Positions 49,205 through 64,000 of a DNA stretch of 64,000 nt are shown here, piece by piece. Numbering within the stretch: the first letter of the stretch is position 1; every line of letters starts with the position of its first letter. The notes below the pieces were generated by a model. The model made no database searches and was not told where the DNA came from. It worked only from the letters and a program-made list of their open reading frames with translations. The stretch is from the human T2T-CHM13v2.0 reference genome, Homo sapiens: the NCBI RefSeq assembly GCF_009914755.1, contig NC_060932.1; one strand, written 5' to 3'. Made by a program: the position numbers and the translations under genes.

Positions 49205-51650
<2,446 letters not shown>

Positions 51651-51654
51651 GGCT

Positions 51655-53931
51655 CCCATTAATATTGGTAATATCACCCTCTCACCTTCCAGATTTTAGG
51701 AACAATATCACAGAAGGGGTGTACACTGCCTGCGATACTGGGAGTAATAGCATTCTCTTCTTCCATGAATATGAGGAGCAATATCACCGGGTGGATGTAC
51801 ACCCACTGCTATACTGGGAGTAACGTCATACTCCACCCCCTGGAGATTATATTCGGATAAATATCACCGGGTGGGTGTACACCTACTGTGATATTGAACG
51901 GAATATCATGCTCTCTCCCTCCCTGGACATTAGGAACAATATCACAGGTGGGTGTACACCCACTGAGGTATTAGGCGTAATATTAGTATTCATTATTACT
52001 CATTTATTATTCATATGAATATGAATTACCAATATTAATATTTAGAAATAATTGCTACTAAAAAGTTTTCAGGTTACTAATATTAATATTATTAGGAGCT
52101 AATATTACTGTATTCTAATGAATAAGATCAGTATCAGTTATTAATATGGGGTGTTATTAATCAATATCAATCATTTATTGTTATTGTTAGTATAACTATT
52201 TAATATTCATTATCATTATTATTGGCATTGATTTTAAAATTATATTATCAGTTATTAATACTGATAATTATAATTAATACCAATAAATACTAATAATTAT
52301 TAGTAGTAATTAACAATTGATACTATTAATTGATATTAATTCATAATTGATATTAATTCCGATAAGTAATATTGCGCCATTCCACACAGTATCGCAGAAA
52401 ACGTACACGCCCCCCGTGATGTTGTTCCTAACAGCCAGAGGTAGACGATGCCATTACGCCAAATAACGCACCGGGTGGGCATCCCTTCTGTGATCTTGTA
52501 GCTAATATCCGGGCGCGGAGAGGACGGTATTAATCCCAATAATCCAGAACGTGTAGACCTCCCCTGTGTTATTGTCCCTAATATCCGAAGGTGGAGAGGA
52601 AGATATACCTCCCAATTTCTCAGGGGTTGTACACCAACCCTGTGACATTGCTCCTAATGTCCAGGGGTAGAGAAAATGACATGACTCACAATATGGCAGG
52701 GGGTGAACACCCCCTTCATGATATTGTTCCTAATATTCAGGGGGGAAGAGTATGATATTCCTCCCAATATCACAGGGGGTGTACTCCCCATATCCCAGAG
52801 GGTGGATAGTATCCCGATTTGTGATGGACTCCTCCACGATGCGGGGAGTAATGTCATCCCCCTCTCCTTCCCTTGCTATTACGATATACATCGCAGCGGG
52901 GCGGGCAACCCCCACGATGCGGGGAGAAATATGACCCCCCCCACCACTGATATGACGAGCCACATCGCAGGGGGGTGGACACTCCCAGTGATGCGGGGAG
53001 TCATATCTATCCCCTTTCCCCATGGATATTAGGAGCCACATCGCAGGGGCGTGGACACTCTCCGCTGATGCGCAGAGTAATTTCAATCCCCGTCCCTCCC
53101 TTCATGTTACCAGCCACTGTGGACACACAGTGTATTTACCATATTTCCAGTAAGATCATCTTTTCCATTGAACCTTATGAACAAGATCACAGAGGGGTGT
53201 ACACCTCCTGCGATATTGGGGGTAATATCATTCTCTCCTCCACTGCATACTGGGAACAATATCACCGGTGCTTGTATTCCCCCTTCCATCTTGGGAGTCA
53301 TATCATACTTGTCTTCCATATATTAAGAACAATAGCAAAGGGGGGGTGGACACTTTGACGATATTGGGAGTAACACCATTCTCTCTACCCCTGGATATTA
53401 GTAGCAATATCACAGGGGGATGTGCATTTCTTGTGATATTGAGAGCAGTATTATTGTCTTCCCCGCTGGATATTAAAAACAATACCACAAGGGGCGTCAA
53501 ACCACCTGCCAAATTTGAGCGAGTGTTATCCTCTCCGCCCCCCTCCGCCCCCGGATATGAGAGACAATAACACAGGGGTAATGTACACCCACAGCTTTAT
53601 TAGGAGAAGTGTCATCCTCTCCTCTCTTGGATATTAGGAACAATATCACAGCGGGGGGTGTACTGCCTCTGCGATATTGGGAGTAAAATTATCCTCTCTT
53701 CCCCTGGATGTGAGGAAGTGTATCAGAGGGGGAGGGTTAACATTCCCTGCGATATTCAATGTAATCTTATGCTCTCCCTCCCAGGGTATTAAGAACAATA
53801 TTACAGGAGGGGTGTACACCCTCTGTGATATTGAGAGTCATATCATCCTCTTTTGCTCTGGACATTAGGAACAATATCACAGGGCTGTGTACACCCCCTG
53901 CGATATTGGGAGTAATATCATCCTGTCGACC
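51655..53931. repeat. SATR1-like satellite (about 75-bp monomers), left block with AT-rich insert and an inverted segment
   Basis: Repeating GGATATTAGGAACAATATCACAGGGGGTGTACACCCCCTGCGATATTGGGAGTAATATCATCCTCTC. This satellite typically accompanies OR7E duplicons. Confidence 0.85.
51978..52365. repeat. AT-rich low-complexity tract
   Basis: Dominated by AATATT/TAAT/ATTA words; it sits between oppositely oriented satellite arms. Confidence 0.85.
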
Positions 53932-54327
53932 TGAGGAGAGAAGCCATTTCTCTGCTGTCTCCTGTCTCTGAAGAGAAGGAGGAAGTAAAAGTTGAAAAAC
54001 AACAGGAATGAAGTCGGTGGCAAGACCAGCCGGTGGCACTGATGAGCCGGCCTGAGGTGAAAAGATTAACCACCCCCACTCTAAGCGCATGTGCTCTCAA
54101 TCCATCACGATTCTTTCACGTGGAACCCCTTAGCGTTGTAAGCCCTTAAACGGGCCAGGAACTCTGTCTTCCTTTGGGGGTCGGGCTCTTAAGACAAGAG
54201 TCTGCCGACACTCCCGGCTGAATAAAAAAATCTCTTCCTTCTTCAATCCACTGTTTGAGGGGCTTAAAATCTCTTCCTTCTTCAATCCACTGTCTGAGGG
54301 GCTTATTCTGCAGCTCCTCCTGCTCCA
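53932..54327 (+). mobile_element. 5' LTR of the provirus (LTR2-family-like)
   Basis: TG...CA termini, AATAAA at 54221, followed by TTTCT-TGGTTC (PBS). Contains a 39-bp tandem duplication at 54227-54304. Confidence 0.85.
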
Positions 54328-54332
54328 TTTCT

Positions 54333-54408
54333 TGGTTCACGTGACTGGGAATCCAACCCAGGCAGCGGCACTGAGAGCGGCAAAGCCTAACCACTAGACT
54401 ACCAGGGG
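54333..54408 (-). pseudogene. Full-length tRNA-Glu(CTC)-derived sequence with encoded CCA (extended retroviral PBS)
   Basis: Minus strand reads CCCCTGGTAGTCTAGTGGTTAGGCTTTGCCGCTCTCAGTGCCGCTGCCTGGGTTGGATTCCCAGTCACGTGAACCA. It is collinear with human tRNA-Glu-CTC (about 12 substitutions and 1 insertion by eye). Anticodon CTC is at 54373-54375. The B box is damaged (GTTGGA). Confidence 0.88.
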
Positions 54409-54410
54409 GA

Positions 54411-55916
54411 CCTAGAACCTTGTGGGAAATAGATTGCTCACAATTAGAAGTGGGTTGGCCATACGAAGGAAGCCTGGACATGTCCCTTGTTTTTAAGGTG
54501 TGGCACGAGGTAACTGGTAAAGGATACCTAGACCAGTTTGCATACATAGACACTTGGTGACAGCTGGTGCTAGACCCCCCACAGTGGCTAAGAGGGCAGG
54601 CAGCAGCAATACTAGTACCAAAGGGACAGATGGCTAAGGAAGGATCCTGCTCCACCCACCCAGAGAAATCAGCTGCTGAAGTTCTGCTCCAGCCAGCATC
54701 AGAAGATCCATTGCAGGAGATGGCACCAGAGATCCCAGTGGTGCCCTCCCCTTACCGGGAAAAGAGGCTCCCCACTCTTGAGCCATCAGTGCTTGCGCCT
54801 CTGTAAGACAAGCATATCCCCAGGCCACCCAGAGTAGACAAGAGAGGAGGCGAGGACTCAGGAGAAACCCCTCCCTTGGCAGCTCATTTAAGACCCAAAA
54901 TGGGGATCCAAATGCCCCTGAGAGAGCAGTGGTATACAGGGATAGATGAGGATGGTCATCTGGTGGGGAGGTGTGTTTTTGGGTACCAGCCCTTCACCTC
55001 TGCCCACCTTCTCAACTGGAAAAATAATACCCCGCCCTATACTGAAAAGCCACAAGCTCTAATTGATTTACTCCAAACTAATATCCGGACCCACAACCCC
55101 ACCTGGGCTGATTGCCACCAGTTGCTCATGTTCCTCTTTAACAGAGATGAAAGGTGGAGAGTGCTCCAAGCAGCAACTAAGTGGCTAGAGGAACACGCAC
55201 CAGCTGATTATCAAAACCCCCAAGAGTATGGAAGGACCCAGTTACCAGGAACTGACCCCCAGGGGGACCCACATGAAAGAGAGGATATGCAAAGGCTAAA
55301 CCAAGACAGAGAAGCTCTCTTGGAAGGATTACAGAGGGGAGCTCAGAAGGCCACAAACGTTAACAAGCTCTCTGAGGTCATTCAGGGAAAAGAAGAAAGT
55401 CCAGCACAATTCTATGAGAGACTGTGTGAGGCCTATGGTATGTGTACTCCCTTTGATCCCAATAGCCCTGAAAATCAGCGCATGATTAGCATGGCTTTAG
55501 TCAGTCAAAGCGCAGAAGACATTAGAAGAAAACTGCAGAAACAGGCTGGGCTTGCAGGGATGAATACATCGCAATGATTAGAAATAGCTAACCAGGTGTT
55601 TGTAAACAGGGAAGCAGTAAGCCGTAAGGAAAACAGCAAAGAGAATGAACGTCAGGCCTGGATAAATGCCAACCTGTTTGTTAGCTGCAGTAATCAGAGG
55701 GGTCACCACAAAGGGCAAGGGAAGGGGGGCCCCGGGAAAGAAACTCAGCTTGGCTGTCAGAGTTTGCAACGTAACCAGTGTGCTGATTGTAAAGAAATAG
55801 GACAGTGGAAGAACAAATGCCCTCAGCTAAAAAGAAAACCAGGTGACTCAGAGCAGGAGGCCCTGGACAAGGAGGAAGGGGCCCTGGTCAACCTGGCAGA
55901 AGTGTTTCTGGACTGA
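54411..55916 (+). pseudogene. HERV-E-like gag, N-terminally truncated with premature stops
   Basis: Single frame from mid-matrix (RTLWEIDCSQLEVGWP) to TGA 55914-16. Internal stops near 54558, 54804 and 55575. Confidence 0.88.
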
Positions 55917-57245
55917 GGGAAACCGGGCTCAAGTGTCCCCAAAAAGCCTCTGGTCAGAATGACAGTCGGGGGTAGAGACATTGATTTTCTTGTAGATACC
56001 GGTGCTGAACATTCGGTAGTAACTACCCCGGTCGCCCCCTTATCCAAAAAGGCTATTGACATCATCGGAGCCACGGGGGTTTCAGCAAAGCAAGCTTTCT
56101 GCTTGCCTCGGACTTGTGCTGTAGGAGGACATAATGTGATTCAGCAGTTTTTGTCCACGCCTGACTGTCCCTTGCGCTGGTTGGGAAGAGACTTGCTTAG
56201 CAAGCTGAGAGCCACTATCTATTTTACAGATCACGGCTCTTTGCTGCTAAAGTTACCTGGAATGGGAGCCATTATGACCCTTACGGTCCCCTGAGAGGAG
56301 GAATGGAGACTTTTCTTAACTGAGCCGTGCCAAGAGTGAAGACCAGCTCTGGCTAAGTGGTGGCCAAGAGTACGGGTGGGACACAACCCTCCAGGGTTGG
56401 CAGTCACCCCAGCCCACATATTCATAGAAGTGAATCCTGGGGCCCAGCCGGTTATGCAAAAACAGGACCGGGTCCCCAGAGAAGCCCTTCAAGGTATCCA
56501 GGTCCATCTCAAGCACCTAAGAACTTTTGGAATTAGAGTTCCTTGTCAGTCTCCATGGAACACTCCCCAGGTATCAGTGCTCCCTCAAGCACCTGATCTT
56601 GTACTTCTTCTAAAGAAGAAGAGGACTTTCTCCAGGTAGAGGGAAGGACAAGTGATGGAGGAAGGATGGATTTGGTTACCAGACGGGAGAGTAGCTGTGC
56701 CACAGCTGCTAGGAGCTGCAGTTGTACTGGCTGTGCAAGAAACCACCCATCGAGGTCAGGAGTTACTGGAAAAGTTGTTAGGCCGGTATTTCTACATCTC
56801 GCCTTTGTCAGCCCTTGCCAAAATGGTGAGGCAGCGGTGTGTTACCTGCCGACAGCATGATGCGAGGCAAGGTCCAGCCGTTCCGCCCAGCATACGAGCT
56901 TATGGAGCAGCCCCCTTTGAAGGTCTCCAGGTGGACTTCACAGAGATGCCAAAGTGTGGAGGTAACAAGTATTTACGAGTTCTTGGGCGTACCTACTCTG
57001 GGTGGGTGGAGGTCTATCCAACATGAACTGAGAAAGCTAGTGAAGTAACCCCTGTGCTTCTTCGAGATGTGATTCCTAGATTTTGACTGCCGTTACGGAT
57101 CGGCTCAGATAACGGGCCTGCGTTTTTGGCTGCCTTGGTACAGAAGACGGCAAAGGTATTGGGGATCACATGGAATTTGCATGACGCCTCCCGGCCTCAG
57201 AGTTCCAGAAAGGTGGAGCGGATGAATCGGACGATCAAAAATAGT
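55917..57245 (+). pseudogene. HERV-E-like pro-pol remnant with RT core and RNase H deleted
   Basis: DTG protease in the same frame as gag. RT breaks after SPWNTP (about 56568) and jumps to the pre-integrase region; no YxDD motif. Integrase is truncated after [11 protein letters not shown]. Confidence 0.88.
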
Positions 57246-59875
57246 GCTATTGTCTTCCCCAGTGGATATTTGAAACAACACCACAAGGGGCGTCAAACCA
57301 CCTGCTAAATTTGAGGGAATGTTATCCTCTCCCCACATCCCCCGGCCCCGGATATTAGAGACAATAACACAGGGGTGATGTACACCCACTGCTTTATTGG
57401 CAGTAATATCATCCTCTCCCTTCTTGGATATTAGGAACAATATCACACTGTGCGTGTAGGCGTGTCGCGAAATTCAATGGAATGTCATCCTGGCCTCCCT
57501 GGATATGACGAACAATATCACGGGGGATGTACAATTTCTGAGATATTGGGAGTGATATCATCCTCTCCCCTCTGGAAGTTAGGGACAATATCACAGGGGT
57601 AGTGTACACCCTCTGGGATGTTGGGACTAATATCATCCTCCTGCCCACTGGATATTAAAAACCATATCACAAGGGGCGTGTACACACACTTCGATATTGG
57701 TATGAATACCATCCTCTCCCTCTTTGGATATTCGGTGCCATATTTCAGGTGGGGTATACACCACCTGATTTTGGTGTATACACCAATACACCACCAATAT
57801 TGGAAGTAATATGATTTTCTCCCTGTTGGATATCAGAAACAATATCACAGGGGGTTGTGAACAACCCCTGCGATATTTGGAGTAATATCATCATCTCCCT
57901 TCATGATTATTAAGAACAATATCGTAGGCGTGGGGGGTGTACACCCCCTTTCATACTGGATATCGTCCTCTTCCCCCCTGGATATTAGGAACAATATCAG
58001 GAAGGGATGTACAGACCTGGCGACCTTTGCTGTCATAGAATTGTCTCTCCCCTAGATATTAGGAAAAATGTCACTGGGGATGTGAACAGCCCTGTGATAT
58101 TGAGAGTAGTATCATCCTCTCCTCCCTTGCATATTGGGAACAACATCACAGGTGGGGTGTACTGCATCTGTGATATTGGGAGTAAAATTTTCCTCTCTTC
58201 CCCTGGACATTAGGAAGGGTATCAGAGGGGGAGGGTGTACATTCCCTGTGATATTCAGCGTAACCATGTCCTCTCCCTCCCAGGGTATTCAGAACAATAT
58301 TACAGGAGGGGTGTACACCCTCTGCGATATTGAGAGTCATATCATCCTCTTTCGCTCTGGATGTTAGGAACAATATCACAGGGTTGTGTACACCCCCTGT
58401 GATATTGGGAGTCATATCATCCTCTCTCCCTGTGGATATTAGGAAGAGTATCACAGGGCTGTGGAAACCCCCTGCGGTACTGGGAGTAATATCATCCTCT
58501 CTCCTTCTGAATATAGGAAGATTTTCACAGGGGTGTGTACACCCTCTGCGATATTGGGAGTAAGATCATCCTCTCCACCCAGGAAATGACTAACAAGGTC
58601 ATGGGGGTGTGTACTCCCCCTGCGATATTGGGAGTAATGTCGTCTTCCCCAAACCTGGATGTTAGCAACGAGATCACAGAGGGGCTGTACACACCCTGCG
58701 ACATTGGAAGTAATATGATCCTCTCCCCACCTGGATACAGGGAAAGATACCACAGCGCGGTGATACGTTTCCTACGCTGTTGGGAGTAATATCATTCTTT
58801 TCCTTTCTGGATATTAGGAAGAATATCACAGGGGTGCTGTACAATTACTTCGATATTGGGAGTAATATCATCCTCTATTTTCCTGGATATTGGGCACGAA
58901 AACACAAAAGGGTGTACAACCCCTGCGATATTGGGAGTAATAGCACACTCTCCTTCCCTGGATGTTAGAAAACAATATCATCAGGGCTGAACACCCGCCG
59001 CGATAATGGGAGTCATATTTACTCTTTCACAGGCCATTTGGAACCATATCACAGGGGGTGTTTACAAACAGGGGTGGTGTACACCCCCTGTGATATTGGG
59101 AGTAACATCATTCTCTCCACCTCCGGATATTAAGAACAATATCCCGGCGGGAGGTGCTACACCGCCAGTGATATTGCGAATAATGTCATCCTCTCCTTCC
59201 CTGGATATTAGGAGCAATATCACAGGGGGGATGTACACCTTCTGTGATATTGGAAGCAATATCATCCTCTCCCCCGCTGGATATTAGAAAAGAATATCAC
59301 TCACTGTGTACACCCACTGTGATATTAGGAAGAATATTGCAGGGTGTACACCCACTCTGACTTTAAGAGAAATAGTTCCCTCAAATGTCCCAAACAATAT
59401 CACAGGTTATACAAGGATATTTCCCTAGGATATTACAAATACTATCACAGGGTGTACATGCACTGTAATATGAGGAATCGTATCTCCCTAGGTGATATTA
59501 GGAGTAATATCTACCTAGTAGATAACAAATAACATGGCAGGGTGTACACCCACTTTGATATTGGCTGTAATATTTTTCTAAGTTGTTACAAATAAGATCA
59601 CCGGGGGTACCAACATGGTGTACACTCACTGTGATATCAGGAGTCGTATCTCTGTAATATATTATGAATAATATCACAGGGTGTACACCCACTGTATTAT
59701 TAGGAGTAAGATCTCTGTAGGATATTACAATTAAGATCACAGGGTGTAGAGCCACAGTGATATTAGGAGAAATATCTTTCTAGGATATTACAAATAATAT
59801 CACAGGGTGTACGCCCACTCTACTGTCAGGAGCAATATCTCCCTAAGATATCAAAAATCCTATCACAGGGTGTCC
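57246..59875 (+). repeat. SATR1/SATR2-like satellite, right block
   Basis: Same monomer up to about 59300, then a shorter variant of about 62 bp (AGGATATTACAAATAATATCACAGGGTGTACACCCACTGTGATATTAGGAG...). Confidence 0.85.
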
Positions 59876-60096
59876 AATCTCTGCCTTCCAGGTTCTAAGG
59901 GATTCTCCTGCTTCAGCCTCCCGAGTAGCTAGGGTTAACGCCACCATGCCTGGCTAATTTTTTTTTTTTATTTTCACTGGAGACGGGGTTTCACCACGTT
60001 GGCCAGGCTGGTCTGGAACTCCTGACCTCAGGTGATCCATCAGCCTCGGCCGCCCAAAGTGCTGGGATTACAGGTGTGAGACATGGTGCTGGGCCA
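59875..60096 (-). mobile_element. Truncated Alu at the satellite end
   Basis: Antisense Alu lacking its 3' part. Confidence 0.9.
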
Positions 60097-60742
60097 GGAG
60101 TTATAGATTCTGTTCATTTGGAAACACAGCTCCCATCTTTCAGTGTGCATGTACTTTTATGAAGAAATGATGTCAGAAAACCGAAGGATGATAATACATA
60201 TGAAAAGTAACAGGCGTGTGAAAAGGTCTTCCGATTGAGAACTGTAAGGTTCGATTTCATTTTCAGATAATGGGGTCCTAGCTCTTGTGTCGTCCTTTTA
60301 CATATTCTACATCAATGGAAGTTGTAGCACGGTGTCAGAATAAAATAGAGTGTATTTCATGGCTTCTTAATTTCTTTCAATTAGACTGAGATATTTTTCT
60401 TAAAGAGAGAAGGACATTTTCATTGCATTGTATTTTTTCTGAAAAGAGTAGGCCGTATTTTACTGAGATCACGGATTTGTTATATATGAAGTTTTAGTCT
60501 TCTAATGTTCTTCAGTGGATATTCTCTAAAGTAGTATATACAGAAAGCCTCGTATAGCAAAAAAGTAAATCACGTAATAATTCTAAGATTTTTGGAATTG
60601 TCACAACTGAGAAACATTGCTGGCGGTGTATGGTCTGCAAGTGTGAAGATGTTCCTTGTGAATTGCTTGCATCTAGCATTAAGGGCTGATTTTTAACTTT
60701 TATTTTTCCAATCCTCTTTCCTTCTCAAGGTGTCCAAGACAC

Positions 60743-61735
60743 ACAGGGCCACGGAATCTCACAGGTGTCTGAGAATTTCTCCTCTTGGGACTCTCAAAGG
60801 ATCCAGAACTGCAGCCAGTCCTCGCTTTGCTGTCCCTGTTCCTGTCCATGTATCTGGTCACGGTGCTGAGGAACCTGCTCAGCATTCTGGCTGTTAGCTC
60901 TGACTCCCCGCTCCACACTCCCGTGTACTTCTTCCTCTCCAACCTGTGCTGGGCTGACATGGGTTTCACCTCGGCCACGGTTCCCAAGATGATTGTGGAC
61001 ATGCAGCCGCATAGCAGAGTCATCTCTCATGCGGGCTGCCTGACACAGATATCTTTCTTGGTCCGTTTTGCATGTATAGAAGGCATGCTCCTGACTGTGA
61101 TGGCCTATGACTGCTTTGTAGCCATCTGTCGCCCTCTGCACTACCCAGTCATCGTGAATCCTCACCTCTGTGTCTTCTTCGTTTTGGTGTCCTTTTTCCT
61201 CAGCCTGTTGGATTCCCAGCTGCACAGTTGCATTGTGTTACTATTCACCATCATAAAGACTGTGGAAATCTCTCATTTTGTCTGTGACCCCTCTCAACTT
61301 CTCAAACTTGCCTGTTCTGACAGCGTCATCAATAGCGTATTCATATATTTCGATAGTACTATGTTTGGTTTTCTTCCCATTTCAGGGATCCTTTTGTCTT
61401 ACTATAAAATTGTCCCCTCCATTCTAAGGATTTCATCATCAGATGAGAAGTATAAAGCCTTCTTCAACTGTGGCTCTCACCTAGCAGTTGTTTGCTGGTT
61501 TTAGGGAACAGGCATTGGCATGTACCTGATTTCAGCTGTGTCACCACCCCCCAGGAATGGTGTGGTGGCATCAGTGATGTACGCTGTGGTCACCCCCATG
61601 CTGAACCTTTTCATCTGCAGCCTGAGAAACAGGGACATACAAAGTGCCCTGCGGAGGCTGCGCAGCAGAACAGTGGAATCTCATGATCTGTTCCATCCTT
61701 TTTCTTGTGTGGGTGAGAAAGGGCAACCACATTAA
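60743..61735 (+). pseudogene. OR7E161P: OR7E-subfamily olfactory receptor pseudogene
   Basis: OR motifs LHTPVYFFLSNL, MAYDCFVAICRPLHY, KAFFNCGSHL and [12 protein letters not shown] lie in one frame. The start codon is lost (ACA at 60743), there are in-frame stops TGA 60770-72 and TAG 61502-04, and the DRY arginine is mutated. The OR7E call is secure; the exact member name is inferred from remembered position relative to DEFB136. Confidence 0.85.
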
Positions 61736-62495
61736 ATCTCTACATCTGCAAATCCTGCCCCTTAGTCACGTTATTTTTGTGGCTTGATGGCTTTTATTCC
61801 TTTCCGCATTTCCTTTGTGAATATTGTTTTCTTCTTTATGTCTTTAACTGGAATGGGTGAGGATTCTGGGATCCTTTGTTTAGCTTAAACCTCATGACTG
61901 AATCATCTATACCTAGGCGGCCTCCTTTGGTTTCTGAGCAATAACCCTGTCATCCAGGTGGAATCACAACCATCTTTTTATATACGTGAAGTCCTCACTT
62001 CATTTTGGAATTCCTTGAAAATTGACTTTATGGAAACAATGTACAGCAGGTCCTCCAACACCACTGGTTCTTCAAAGTTGTGTAGTTATAATGTTGGAGA
62101 GGAATAAGTGGTTTCACTATACCTAATTTTGCTTCAAGGTGAAGTTTCCAAGAGACTTTCAAAGATGTTAAGTGAGGACATACTGTACATCAAATTCATA
62201 TCCTCTTCCACAGTTCATGTGGAATTTCTTTATAAACTTCTTCTAGAGAATCTATTTAGGCAGGTTCTGTGTAGAGATCCATGTCGCCGTTCCTCAATCT
62301 TGGCTTTGAGTCAAATCACCTGGGGAGCTTACACATGATGAGGCCTGGGTCTCATTACCTGAGATTCTGATTTCTCTGCACCTGTGTGAGTGTGTGGATT
62401 TTTTTCTTTTTTTTTTAAAGCACCAGAGGTGGTTGCAATGAGGAAGTTTTTAGAGGCATCAAGCTCCAATGAGTAAGAACAGAAGTTAATTGTAA

Positions 62496-64000
<1,505 letters not shown>

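What the first reader, a model, noticed from the sequence alone, without database searches (positions are those of the whole stretch)
54328..54420. A whole tRNA-Glu(CTC), with CCA, replaces the provirus leader and is fused into mid-gag
Seen: after the LTR end (54327) and a 5-nt spacer, complementarity to tRNA-Glu runs for the entire tRNA (54333-54408), not the usual 18 nt. It then abuts gag matrix codons (54411 onward), so the packaging leader, splice donor and gag start are absent. Established: retroviral plus-strand strong-stop synthesis normally halts after 18 nt at m1A58 of the primer tRNA, and CCA is not genomically encoded in human tRNA genes. Inference: this is a fossil of RT reading through the whole primer tRNA, followed by aberrant strand transfer into gag. 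That makes it an ERV-made tRNA retrocopy, probably multiplied with the OR7E duplicon. It may already be annotated simply as a tRNA pseudogene.
Basis: partly seen in the sequence, partly recalled or inferred. Interest (0 to 1): 0.8.

Follow-up and report, generated by a model that had tools for sequence, protein, structure and literature searches.

The report
Retrovirus fossil that copied its whole primer tRNA
An ancient HERV-E provirus carries a complete copy of its tRNA-Glu primer where its leader should be, joined to the start of gag at a 9-base match, which records a rare slip of reverse transcription later spread by segmental duplication.

Summary
Window 54333-54408 (+) is the reverse complement of a whole tRNA-Glu(CTC) plus CCA: 11 mismatches and 1 gap over tRNA positions 2-75. 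[quoted passage not shown]

All 13 ordinary HERV-E copies whose LTR end I could locate have only the 18-nt site, then about 620 nt of leader and gag start. In the window those are missing, along with the first 33 gag codons. The join is therefore near the start of matrix, not mid-gag.

The tRNA/gag join lies on a 9-nt identity between the end of a fully copied tRNA and gag. That 9-mer occurs once in each of 6 ordinary copies examined, at this spot. This is the signature of plus-strand read-through of the primer followed by a microhomology-guided second jump.

It was one event. The same junction occurs at 10 places in the genome, sharing satellite flanks and forming one gag clade. They are the long form of the SATR-HERVE-SATR ends of the published Xiao/DA (OR7E) core duplicon.

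Two further loci look like L1-type retrocopies of a tRNA-sense transcript.

I found no published description. The mechanism itself is known from cell culture.

The parts
51676..53931 (.). Upstream satellite array, 75-76-nt period. This is the 'SATR' arm of the SATR-HERVE-SATR element; part of it (52488-52784) is in inverted orientation.
   Evidence: for the repeats and period. The flank is shared with the other junction copies. The name SATR comes from PMC2700803 and PMC5088589 and was not tested against a repeat library.
53932..54327 (+). 5' LTR of HERV-E type, complete at its 5' end. It carries a window-specific 39-nt x2 tandem duplication at 54227-54305.
   Evidence: In one search, LTR copies elsewhere begin at query position 7-9, which is window 53931-53933. 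The same LTR type flanks ordinary proviruses on chr9, chr4 and chr10. One search shows the tandem duplication.
54328..54332 (+). Normal 5-nt spacer TTTCT between the LTR and the primer binding site.
   Evidence: The same spacer is present in 12 of 13 ordinary copies (one reads TTTCA) and in the junction copies.
54333..54351 (+). Primer-binding-site part of the tRNA complement, covering CCA plus tRNA positions 59-73. It is 19 nt here because of a 1-nt insertion.
   Evidence: The ordinary 18-nt site is shown.
54352..54399 (+). Complement of tRNA-Glu(CTC) positions about 10-58, including anticodon CTC. An ordinary provirus never contains this sequence.
   Evidence: alignment to the true gene of L012. 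Rfam tRNA hit 54337-54408 on the minus strand. RefSeq pseudogene TRE-CTC11-1, 54337-54408 minus (hub table).
54400..54408 (+). Junction 9-mer (TACCAGGGG here; CACCAGGGG in less decayed copies). It is the overlap between the complement of tRNA positions 1-9 and gag codons 31-33.
54409..55916 (+). Rest of gag: matrix from about codon 34, p12, capsid and nucleocapsid. It is broken by stops and frameshifts.
   Evidence: ORF pieces. Gag_MA E 2e-4 from profile position 36; Gag_p30 E 2.3e-42.
55917..56294 (+). Protease.
   Evidence: RVP, E 3.9e-15.
56340..57247 (+). Start of reverse transcriptase, then an internal loss of about 1.7 kb at about 56568/56570, then the integrase zinc finger and part of the integrase core. 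It ends at about 57247. No env and no 3' LTR follow.
   Evidence: zf-H2C2 E 1.8e-5; rve weak, E 0.009. Searches show the 1.7-kb piece present in L062 and L067-L069. One search shows the satellite starting at 57248. One search finds no second LTR in 50000-64000.
57248..59900 (.). Downstream satellite arm, with 75-76-nt and 63-nt periods.
   Evidence: The integrase-to-satellite junction is found full-length at 40 of 40 scored places.
60716..61711 (+). OR7E161P, an olfactory-receptor pseudogene of the duplicon core.
   Evidence: Hub annotation table. Xiao core = OR7E flanked by SATR and ERV1 (PMC5088589, passages).

Best explanation
This is a fossil of one faulty round of reverse transcription of a HERV-E virus, more than about 20 million years ago.

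Plus-strand strong-stop DNA normally copies only the last 18 nt of the tRNA-Glu(CTC) primer still attached to the minus strand. Here it ran on to the 5' end of the tRNA. Its new 3' end (...CACCAGGGA) could no longer pair with the primer-binding-site complement. It did match a 9-nt stretch in gag codons 31-33. The second jump landed there, most simply by pairing with the growing minus-strand 3' end at that point.

The product was LTR - spacer - whole tRNA complement with CCA - gag from codon 34. About 615 nt were lost: the leader with splice donor and packaging region, the gag ATG, and 33 codons.

This provirus integrated in or beside a 75-nt satellite. It lost its 3' part and became the SATR-HERVE-SATR end of the Xiao/DA (OR7E) core duplicon. 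It was then copied as DNA by segmental duplication. Ten copies still carry the junction.

Shown: the anatomy, the microhomology, the single origin and the shared flanks. Inferred: the order of events inside the virion, and an unmethylated A58.
For: Position, orientation and extent.
- The tRNA complement begins at the normal primer-binding-site position after the normal spacer.
- It is antisense to the tRNA on the provirus sense strand, as a plus-strand copy of the primer must be.
- It reaches tRNA position 1-2 in the window and 9 other copies; the 11th sequence, L011, is 5'-truncated.

Ordinary copies.
- All 13 with a located LTR end have the 18-nt site and then leader.
- The three closest relatives in the gag tree (chr9, chr4, chr10) have the same LTR type.

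Microhomology.
- There are 9 contiguous identities, and 13 of 19, between the read-through 3' end and gag at the join, in 6 of 6 loci.
- The 9-mer occurs once per roughly 3.6-kb locus.
- About 0.034 such sites are expected by chance in 8.8 kb.

Single origin.
- The 29-nt junction pattern with up to 3 mismatches is found at 10 places, and 0 for the reversed control.
- All 10 share a G where both tRNA and gag predict A.
- Seven junction copies form one clade, SH-aLRT 96.

DNA-level spread.
- All 8 duplicon copies other than the window have homologous satellite flanks.
- The chr2:159.3M copy also shares the downstream flank.

Other points.
- True genes lack CCA: 19 of 19 exact tRNA-Glu(CTC) genes are followed by other bases.
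- A58 is read correctly in 10 of 11 copies. This fits a primer lacking m1A58, the situation in which read-through is reported (PMC8599865, passages).
Against: - The event cannot be replayed, and no 3' LTR or target-site duplication survives to show normal integration.
- The CCA could simply be the TGG of the original primer binding site.
- One base at the join (G for A) fits neither parent and needs a misincorporation or an early substitution.
- Only 10 of at least 40 SATR-HERVE-SATR copies keep the junction. That the long form is ancestral rests on 3 sampled short copies sharing one deletion.
- The gag tree was a quick search with SH-aLRT support only.
- PMC8599865 states that such read-through products cannot be integrated.
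Confidence: 0.85

Rival explanations
1. Post-integration DNA repair or gene conversion. [quoted passage not shown]
For: The same two homologies (18 nt and 9 nt) would serve this route. The CCA need not come from RNA, because the primer binding site already has TGG.
Against: It needs an ectopic template on another chromosome and two very short homologies. No tRNA-gene flank is carried over: the join is exact at tRNA position 1. The read-through route uses a molecule already attached at that very site.
Confidence: 0.04
2. An independent L1-mediated tRNA retrocopy happened to insert into the provirus.
For: L1-type retrocopies with this sequence do exist elsewhere: L010 and L011, with 12-nt and 11-nt flanking repeats.
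Against: In the window and the other 8 duplicon copies there is no A-tail and no target-site duplication. The copy starts exactly at the primer-binding-site position, and about 615 nt of provirus are missing. L010 and L011 carry LTR sequence with the lineage-specific CTCCA end, so they derive from the chimera and not the reverse.
Confidence: 0.02
3. A template switch onto a tRNA that was not the primer, during minus-strand synthesis. This would resemble the hairpin-induced tRNA-mediated recombination described for HIV-1.
For: tRNA pieces of 63-65 nt, including tRNA-Glu, were reported inside HIV recombinants. This comes from PMC12220202's account of Konstantinova 2006, which I could not read.
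Against: Copying a tRNA into the minus strand would put the tRNA sense on the provirus sense strand. Here it is antisense. The copy is in register with the primer binding site and includes the CCA complement.
Confidence: 0.02
4. The chimera spread by retrotransposition, not by segmental duplication. In this view it is a non-autonomous ERV family, or a Xiao/DA composite retrotransposon moved by HERV-E proteins, as raised in PMC2700803.
For: There are ten dispersed copies on four chromosomes. PMC2700803 reports target-site duplications at many Xiao/DA loci (passages).
Against: The copies share kilobases of non-viral flank. The element has no 3' LTR in the window and lacks the whole leader where gammaretroviral packaging signals lie; that location is recalled, not tested.
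Confidence: 0.05

Closest known systems
Circular MoMLV DNA with a reverse-transcribed tRNA between the LTRs (Colicelli and Goff 1986). Known to me only through the account in PMC12220202; the paper itself (PMC252783) is not held.
   Same: A retroviral plus strand copied a whole primer-type tRNA that had stayed attached to the minus strand.
   Different: That was an unintegrated circle from a mutant virus in culture, with tRNA-Gly as a spurious primer and no jump into gag. Here it is the cognate primer, in a germline-fixed provirus, rescued by microhomology.
m1A58 (and m5Um54) as stop signals for plus-strand strong-stop DNA (PMC8599865, abstract and passages).
   Same: The same step of reverse transcription. 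That paper describes read-through when the modification is missing.
   Different: That paper states that read-through products are non-complementary and cannot be integrated. This locus is a natural case in which one was integrated.
SES (SATR-HERVE-SATR) flanking element of the Xiao/DA core duplicon (PMC2700803 and PMC5088589, passages; Ji and Zhao 2008 not held).
   Same: The same object: a 'modified, inactive HERV-E' between SATR satellites beside OR7E genes at 8p23.1 and about 30-43 other places.
   Different: In the two papers I could search, the word tRNA occurs 0 times. The nature of the 'modification' at the 5' end is what is described here.
L1-made retrocopies and chimeric retrocopies of small Pol III RNAs, such as U6-L1 chimeras (recalled, not read).
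   Same: L010 and L011 have flanking direct repeats and A-rich ends. L010 joins a small-RNA-like unit to another repeat fragment.
   Different: The window copy itself has none of these marks. It was made by a retroviral enzyme, not by L1.

Membership tests
HERV-E (gamma-like ERV, LTR2-type LTRs) | Primer binding site complementary to the 3' 18 nt of tRNA-Glu | tested here: met
   Ordinary copies L046 and L055 match 18 of 18 to the true gene plus CCA. Junction copies contain the same 18 nt.
HERV-E (gamma-like ERV, LTR2-type LTRs) | Gamma-type gag, protease and integrase domains, and clustering with ordinary proviruses | tested here: met
   Pfam Gag_MA, Gag_p30, RVP and zf-H2C2. In the gag tree it sits inside the HERV-E copies, next to the chr9, chr4 and chr10 proviruses, support 98.
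HERV-E (gamma-like ERV, LTR2-type LTRs) | Match to the Repbase/Dfam LTR2 and HERVE consensus | not testable with these tools
   No repeat library is available. The LTR type was judged from genomic copies only.
Functional tRNA gene | Cloverleaf scoring above curated thresholds | tested here: not met
   Rfam 20.5 bits against a gathering score of 29. ARAGORN finds none.
Functional tRNA gene | CCA not encoded in the DNA | tested here: not met
   The CCA complement is present at 54333-54335. 19 of 19 true genes lack it.
Functional tRNA gene | Intact internal A and B boxes | tested here: inconclusive
   The window copy has G9 to A and C56 to G. The box definitions are recalled, and no binding data are available.
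L1-mediated retropseudogene | Target-site duplication and A-rich 3' end around the copy | tested here: not met
   Absent in the window and the 8 other duplicon copies. Present only at L010 and L011.
Primer-tRNA read-through product | Starts in register with the primer binding site, is antisense on the provirus sense strand, and reaches the tRNA 5' end | tested here: met
Primer-tRNA read-through product | Acceptor site shares homology with the new 3' end | tested here: met
   9 contiguous identities and 13 of 19, in 6 of 6 loci. The 9-mer is unique in each locus.
SES element of the Xiao/DA core duplicon | ERV piece between satellite arms next to an OR7E gene, repeated as a direct repeat about 20-30 kb away | tested here: met
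   Satellites lie on both sides. OR7E161P is at 60716 (hub table). The partner copy is 22.6 kb downstream. The right-hand junction is found at 40 or more places. SATR1/SATR2 identity was not tested.

The most novel reading that the evidence does not exclude
When it formed, the read-through planted a complete, promoter-bearing tRNA-Glu unit inside what became the end of the Xiao/DA core duplicon, and that unit was active.

It was transcribed by RNA polymerase III from about 5 nt upstream of the tRNA to the first T-run in the antisense LTR. The L010 insert has exactly these two ends. The L010 and L011 retrocopies would then be its descendants.

As a TFIIIC/Pol III site, or through LTR-driven RNA carrying a 75-nt antisense to tRNA-Glu and its fragments, it may have influenced the behaviour or instability of one of the most rearrangement-prone duplicons of the ape genome.
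Probability: 0.1. Interest if true: 0.7.

Novelty: new variant of a known kind. Interest (0 to 1): 0.5.

Why it matters
1. It explains where a small family of annotated human tRNA-Glu pseudogenes comes from. They were made by a retroviral reverse transcriptase and copied by segmental duplication. They were not made by L1 or by gene duplication.

2. It is a natural, germline-fixed record that primer read-through past position 58 happens in vivo. A 9-nt microhomology can rescue the product into an integrated provirus, which recent work on HIV-1 presents as a dead end.

3. It defines what is 'modified' at the 5' end of the HERV-E piece in the Xiao/DA core duplicon. With no leader and no 3' LTR, retroviral mobilisation of that duplicon is hard to sustain.

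4. The 29-nt junction is a unique marker of the long, apparently ancestral form of the duplicon end. It can be used to trace the duplicon in primate assemblies.

Tried and rejected
tRNA detection. ARAGORN and Rfam at gathering threshold found no tRNA. Only the permissive Rfam search did, below threshold.

Papers not held. Ji and Zhao 2008, Colicelli and Goff 1986 and Konstantinova 2006 are not held. What they say is second-hand or recalled. Ji and Zhao may already describe the 5' structure of the modified HERV-E.

Literature searches. I ran these to look for a prior description:
- (search listings).
- Passages of PMC2700803, PMC5088589, PMC4189335, PMC5753468, PMC7472051, PMC8599865 and PMC12220202.
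None links tRNA-Glu pseudogenes to HERV-E read-through. This covers the open-access library only.

Limits on sequence and searches.
I fetched 27 kb in smaller pieces instead, so the downstream structure is known for only some copies.
Copies with more than 3 mismatches in the 29-mer would be missed.
- Translating the whole ERV by reference failed on 47 stops. I used the open pieces instead.

Ideas rejected. The whole tRNA as a normal HERV-E or Harlequin family feature was rejected. Retrotransposition as the way the ten copies spread was rejected.

Not done. No complex or structure prediction was needed. Other primates could not be searched with these tools.

Full report
**What is there**

On the + strand the LTR ends at 54327, followed by TTTCT (54328-54332). 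Then comes TGG and the reverse complement of a whole tRNA-Glu(CTC), 54333-54408.

I took a true tRNA-Glu(CTC) gene from the same genome (L012, found by ARAGORN) and added CCA. The window copy aligns to it over tRNA positions 2-75 with 11 mismatches, 4 of them CpG-type, and one 1-nt gap. BLAST with the window stretch finds the true tRNA-Glu genes of chromosomes 1 and 6 at E about 6e-12.

As a tRNA it is dead. ARAGORN finds nothing. Rfam finds nothing at gathering score, and only 20.5 bits against a threshold of 29 in a permissive search. RefSeq lists it as the pseudogene TRE-CTC11-1 (hub table).

**How ordinary HERV-E copies look**

A search of the window's own genome with the gag part gave 40 scored matches of 249 candidates. 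I examined 29 loci.

Of the 23 that lack the tRNA, 13 had an LTR end that my script could place. [quoted passage not shown] In the other 10 the script found no LTR hit.

The distance from LTR end to the junction point is 641-654 nt in those 13 copies and 82 nt in the window. The gag ATG lies 100 nt before the junction point in L037. The window therefore lacks the whole leader and the first 33 codons of gag.

Pfam agrees. Gag_MA matches only from profile position 36, starting at window 54417. The join is thus at the start of matrix, not mid-gag.

The rest of the element reads as follows:
- Gag_p30, E 2.3e-42.
- Protease (RVP), E 3.9e-15.
- The start of reverse transcriptase.
- An internal loss of about 1.7 kb that other copies retain.
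- The integrase zinc finger and a piece of the integrase core.

All of this is broken by stops and frameshifts. The element ends at about 57247, where the satellite resumes. No second LTR lies in 50000-64000.

**The junction**

In every ordinary copy with this part intact, gag reads ...ATGACACCAGGGA just before the junction point. A plus strand that had copied the tRNA to its first base would end ...GACCACCAGGGA.

The two share 9 contiguous bases at the 3' end and 13 of the last 19, in 6 of 6 loci examined. The 9-mer occurs once in each of those roughly 3.6-kb loci, exactly there, and not on the other strand. About 0.034 such sites would be expected by chance in 8.8 kb.

This is what a homology-guided second strand transfer of an over-long strong-stop DNA should leave. 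The simplest version is that the growing minus-strand 3' end, on reaching gag codon 31-33, paired with the read-through 3' end and each primed on the other. That detail is inference.

Two further points:
- The base opposite tRNA position 58 is the correct one in 10 of 11 copies. This fits a primer molecule without m1A58. PMC8599865 (abstract and passages) reports read-through under that condition and says such products cannot be integrated.
- One base at the join is G in all ten copies, where both parents predict A. This is a misincorporation or an early substitution.

**One event, copied as DNA**

The 29-nt junction pattern with up to 3 mismatches occurs at 10 places in the genome, and at 0 for the reversed control. 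There are four on chr8 (including the window), four on chr2, one on chr3 and one on chr13.

Eight of the nine non-window places continue into gag. All eight have satellite upstream of the LTR that is homologous to the window's flanks. In seven it is colinear with the window's own upstream flank, at 79-91% identity. In the chr2:96.06M copy the best match is to the paralogous downstream satellite. The chr2:159.3M copy also shares the downstream flank to window 59281.

In a quick maximum-likelihood tree of 1144 gag columns and 30 rows, the 7 junction copies long enough to include form one group (SH-aLRT 96). That group sits next to three ordinary proviruses (support 98) whose LTRs are of the same type. 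The copies left out are chr13 and chr2:96.06M, whose gag ends near window-equivalent 54850, and L010. End branches of 0.035-0.048 changes per site point to old duplications.

**What the element is called in print**

This element is the 'SES' (SATR-HERVE-SATR) direct repeat that flanks the Xiao (about 30 kb, OR7E core) and DA (about 300 kb) core duplicons. [quoted passage not shown] The duplicon is implicated in 8p23.1 rearrangements (PMC5088589, passages).

The window fits that description:
- Satellites of 75-76-nt period lie on both sides.
- OR7E161P is at 60716 (hub table).
- A partner copy lies 22.6 kb downstream, beyond OR7E158P.

Neither paper contains the word tRNA. Ji and Zhao 2008 could not be read.

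The integrase-to-satellite junction (57150-57330) is found full-length at 40 of 40 scored places, out of 114 candidates, on 11 chromosomes. Only a minority of SES copies therefore keep the tRNA.

I sampled three SES copies without it: chr9:102.92M, chr11:71.81M and chr3:75.40M. All three share one deletion that joins window-equivalent 52271 to 54867. It removes the satellite, the LTR, the tRNA and about 460 nt of gag. The window therefore holds the longer and probably older form.

**Secondary retrocopies**

Two further loci carry only the LTR end plus the tRNA.
- L011 (chr2:11.58M) is a 101-nt insert between 11-nt exact direct repeats. Read in the tRNA sense, it holds tRNA positions 7-75 (including CCA), the spacer, 25 nt of antisense LTR and a short A-run.
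- L010 (chr2:205.84M) is a 266-nt insert between 12-nt direct repeats, inside what I take to be an Alu. Read in the tRNA sense, it starts about 5 nt upstream of the tRNA and runs through CCA and antisense LTR to the first T6 run. It then continues into a fragment of a high-copy repeat (933 candidates, 94-97% identity; L1 by recall) with an A-rich end.

Both carry the LTR-end variant CTCCA, which all the junction copies examined for it have where the ordinary ones have CTACA. They therefore descend from the chimera.

Their ends are those expected of a Pol III transcript of the tRNA unit that was picked up by L1. I rate this reading at about even odds.

**Rivals**

- A DNA-level repair using a tRNA gene cannot be excluded, but it needs an ectopic template and carries no gene flank.
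- An L1 retrocopy inserted into the provirus is contradicted by the lack of an A-tail and of flanking repeats, and by the exact register with the primer binding site.
- A switch onto a tRNA during minus-strand synthesis would give the opposite orientation.
- Retrotransposition of the chimera is contradicted by the shared flanks.

**Novelty**

Primer read-through is known from cell culture. One case is Colicelli and Goff 1986, which I know only through PMC12220202. tRNA pieces in retroviral recombinants have also been reported.

In eight literature searches, each giving only a listing of titles and abstract openings, and in the passages I read of seven papers, I found no description of this fossil or of the origin of these tRNA-Glu pseudogenes. 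Paywalled work and Ji and Zhao 2008 remain unseen.

I rate it a new variant of a known kind. It is a neat, well-supported molecular fossil of moderate interest.

Noticed in passing
window 54227-54305: A 39-nt unit is tandemly duplicated (2.0 copies, 97% match) in the R/U5 part of the LTR. The nine other junction copies have a single unit.
   Followed up: partly
L010 1485-1774 (chr2:205.84M, minus strand): A 266-nt insert lies between 12-nt direct repeats inside an apparent Alu. It holds a fragment of a high-copy repeat (L1 by recall), the LTR from just after its AATAAA to its end, the spacer, the whole tRNA complement and 7 nt of gag. Read in the tRNA sense, it runs from about 5 nt before the tRNA to the first T6 run. 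This is the span expected of a Pol III transcript, and it looks like a chimeric L1-made retrocopy.
   Followed up: partly
L011 1491-1613 (chr2:11.58M, minus strand): A 101-nt insert lies between exact 11-nt direct repeats. It holds tRNA positions 7-75 (including CCA), the spacer, 25 nt of antisense LTR and a short A-run. It has only 4 mismatches to the true tRNA. It is a 5'-truncated L1-type retrocopy of a tRNA-sense RNA from the chimera.
   Followed up: partly
L067, L068, L069 (chr9:102.92M, chr11:71.81M, chr3:75.40M): Three of three sampled SATR-HERVE-SATR copies without the tRNA share one deletion joining window-equivalent 52271 to 54867. They keep a 1.7-kb pol piece that the window has lost at 56568/56570. 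The gag of the chr13 and chr2:96.06M copies also ends near 54850, so this spot looks like a recurrent breakpoint.
   Followed up: partly
L043 (chr8:7.829M, about 25 kb after the window's junction): The partner SES of this Xiao unit is colinear with the window only to window-equivalent 55580. There an ordinary HERV-E 5' half follows, with LTR, 18-nt primer binding site, leader and gag. This is either a second provirus inserted into the first or a recombinant.
   Followed up: no
L040, L041, L047, L049, L057 (chr11, chr3, chr12): Five ordinary HERV-E copies form a clade with 100% support. They share an 18-nt in-frame loss in matrix whose 3' edge coincides with the read-through jump site.
   Followed up: no
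window 53452-53937 versus 57248-58436: The satellite just right of the ERV piece (57248-57459) is a paralogue, at about 89%, of satellite 480 nt left of it (53452-53663). The satellite abutting the LTR (53655-53937) recurs at 58154-58436 (90%) with no LTR. This looks like an empty-site-like paralogue and a sign of unequal exchange within the array.
   Followed up: partly
L052, L053, L054, L058 (chr8: 12.24M, 11.57M, 7.48M, 12.76M): Four ordinary HERV-E gag copies on chr8 are identical or nearly so, with branches of 0-0.005. They mark very recent 8p23.1 duplications, in contrast with the old divergence of the tRNA-bearing copies.
   Followed up: no
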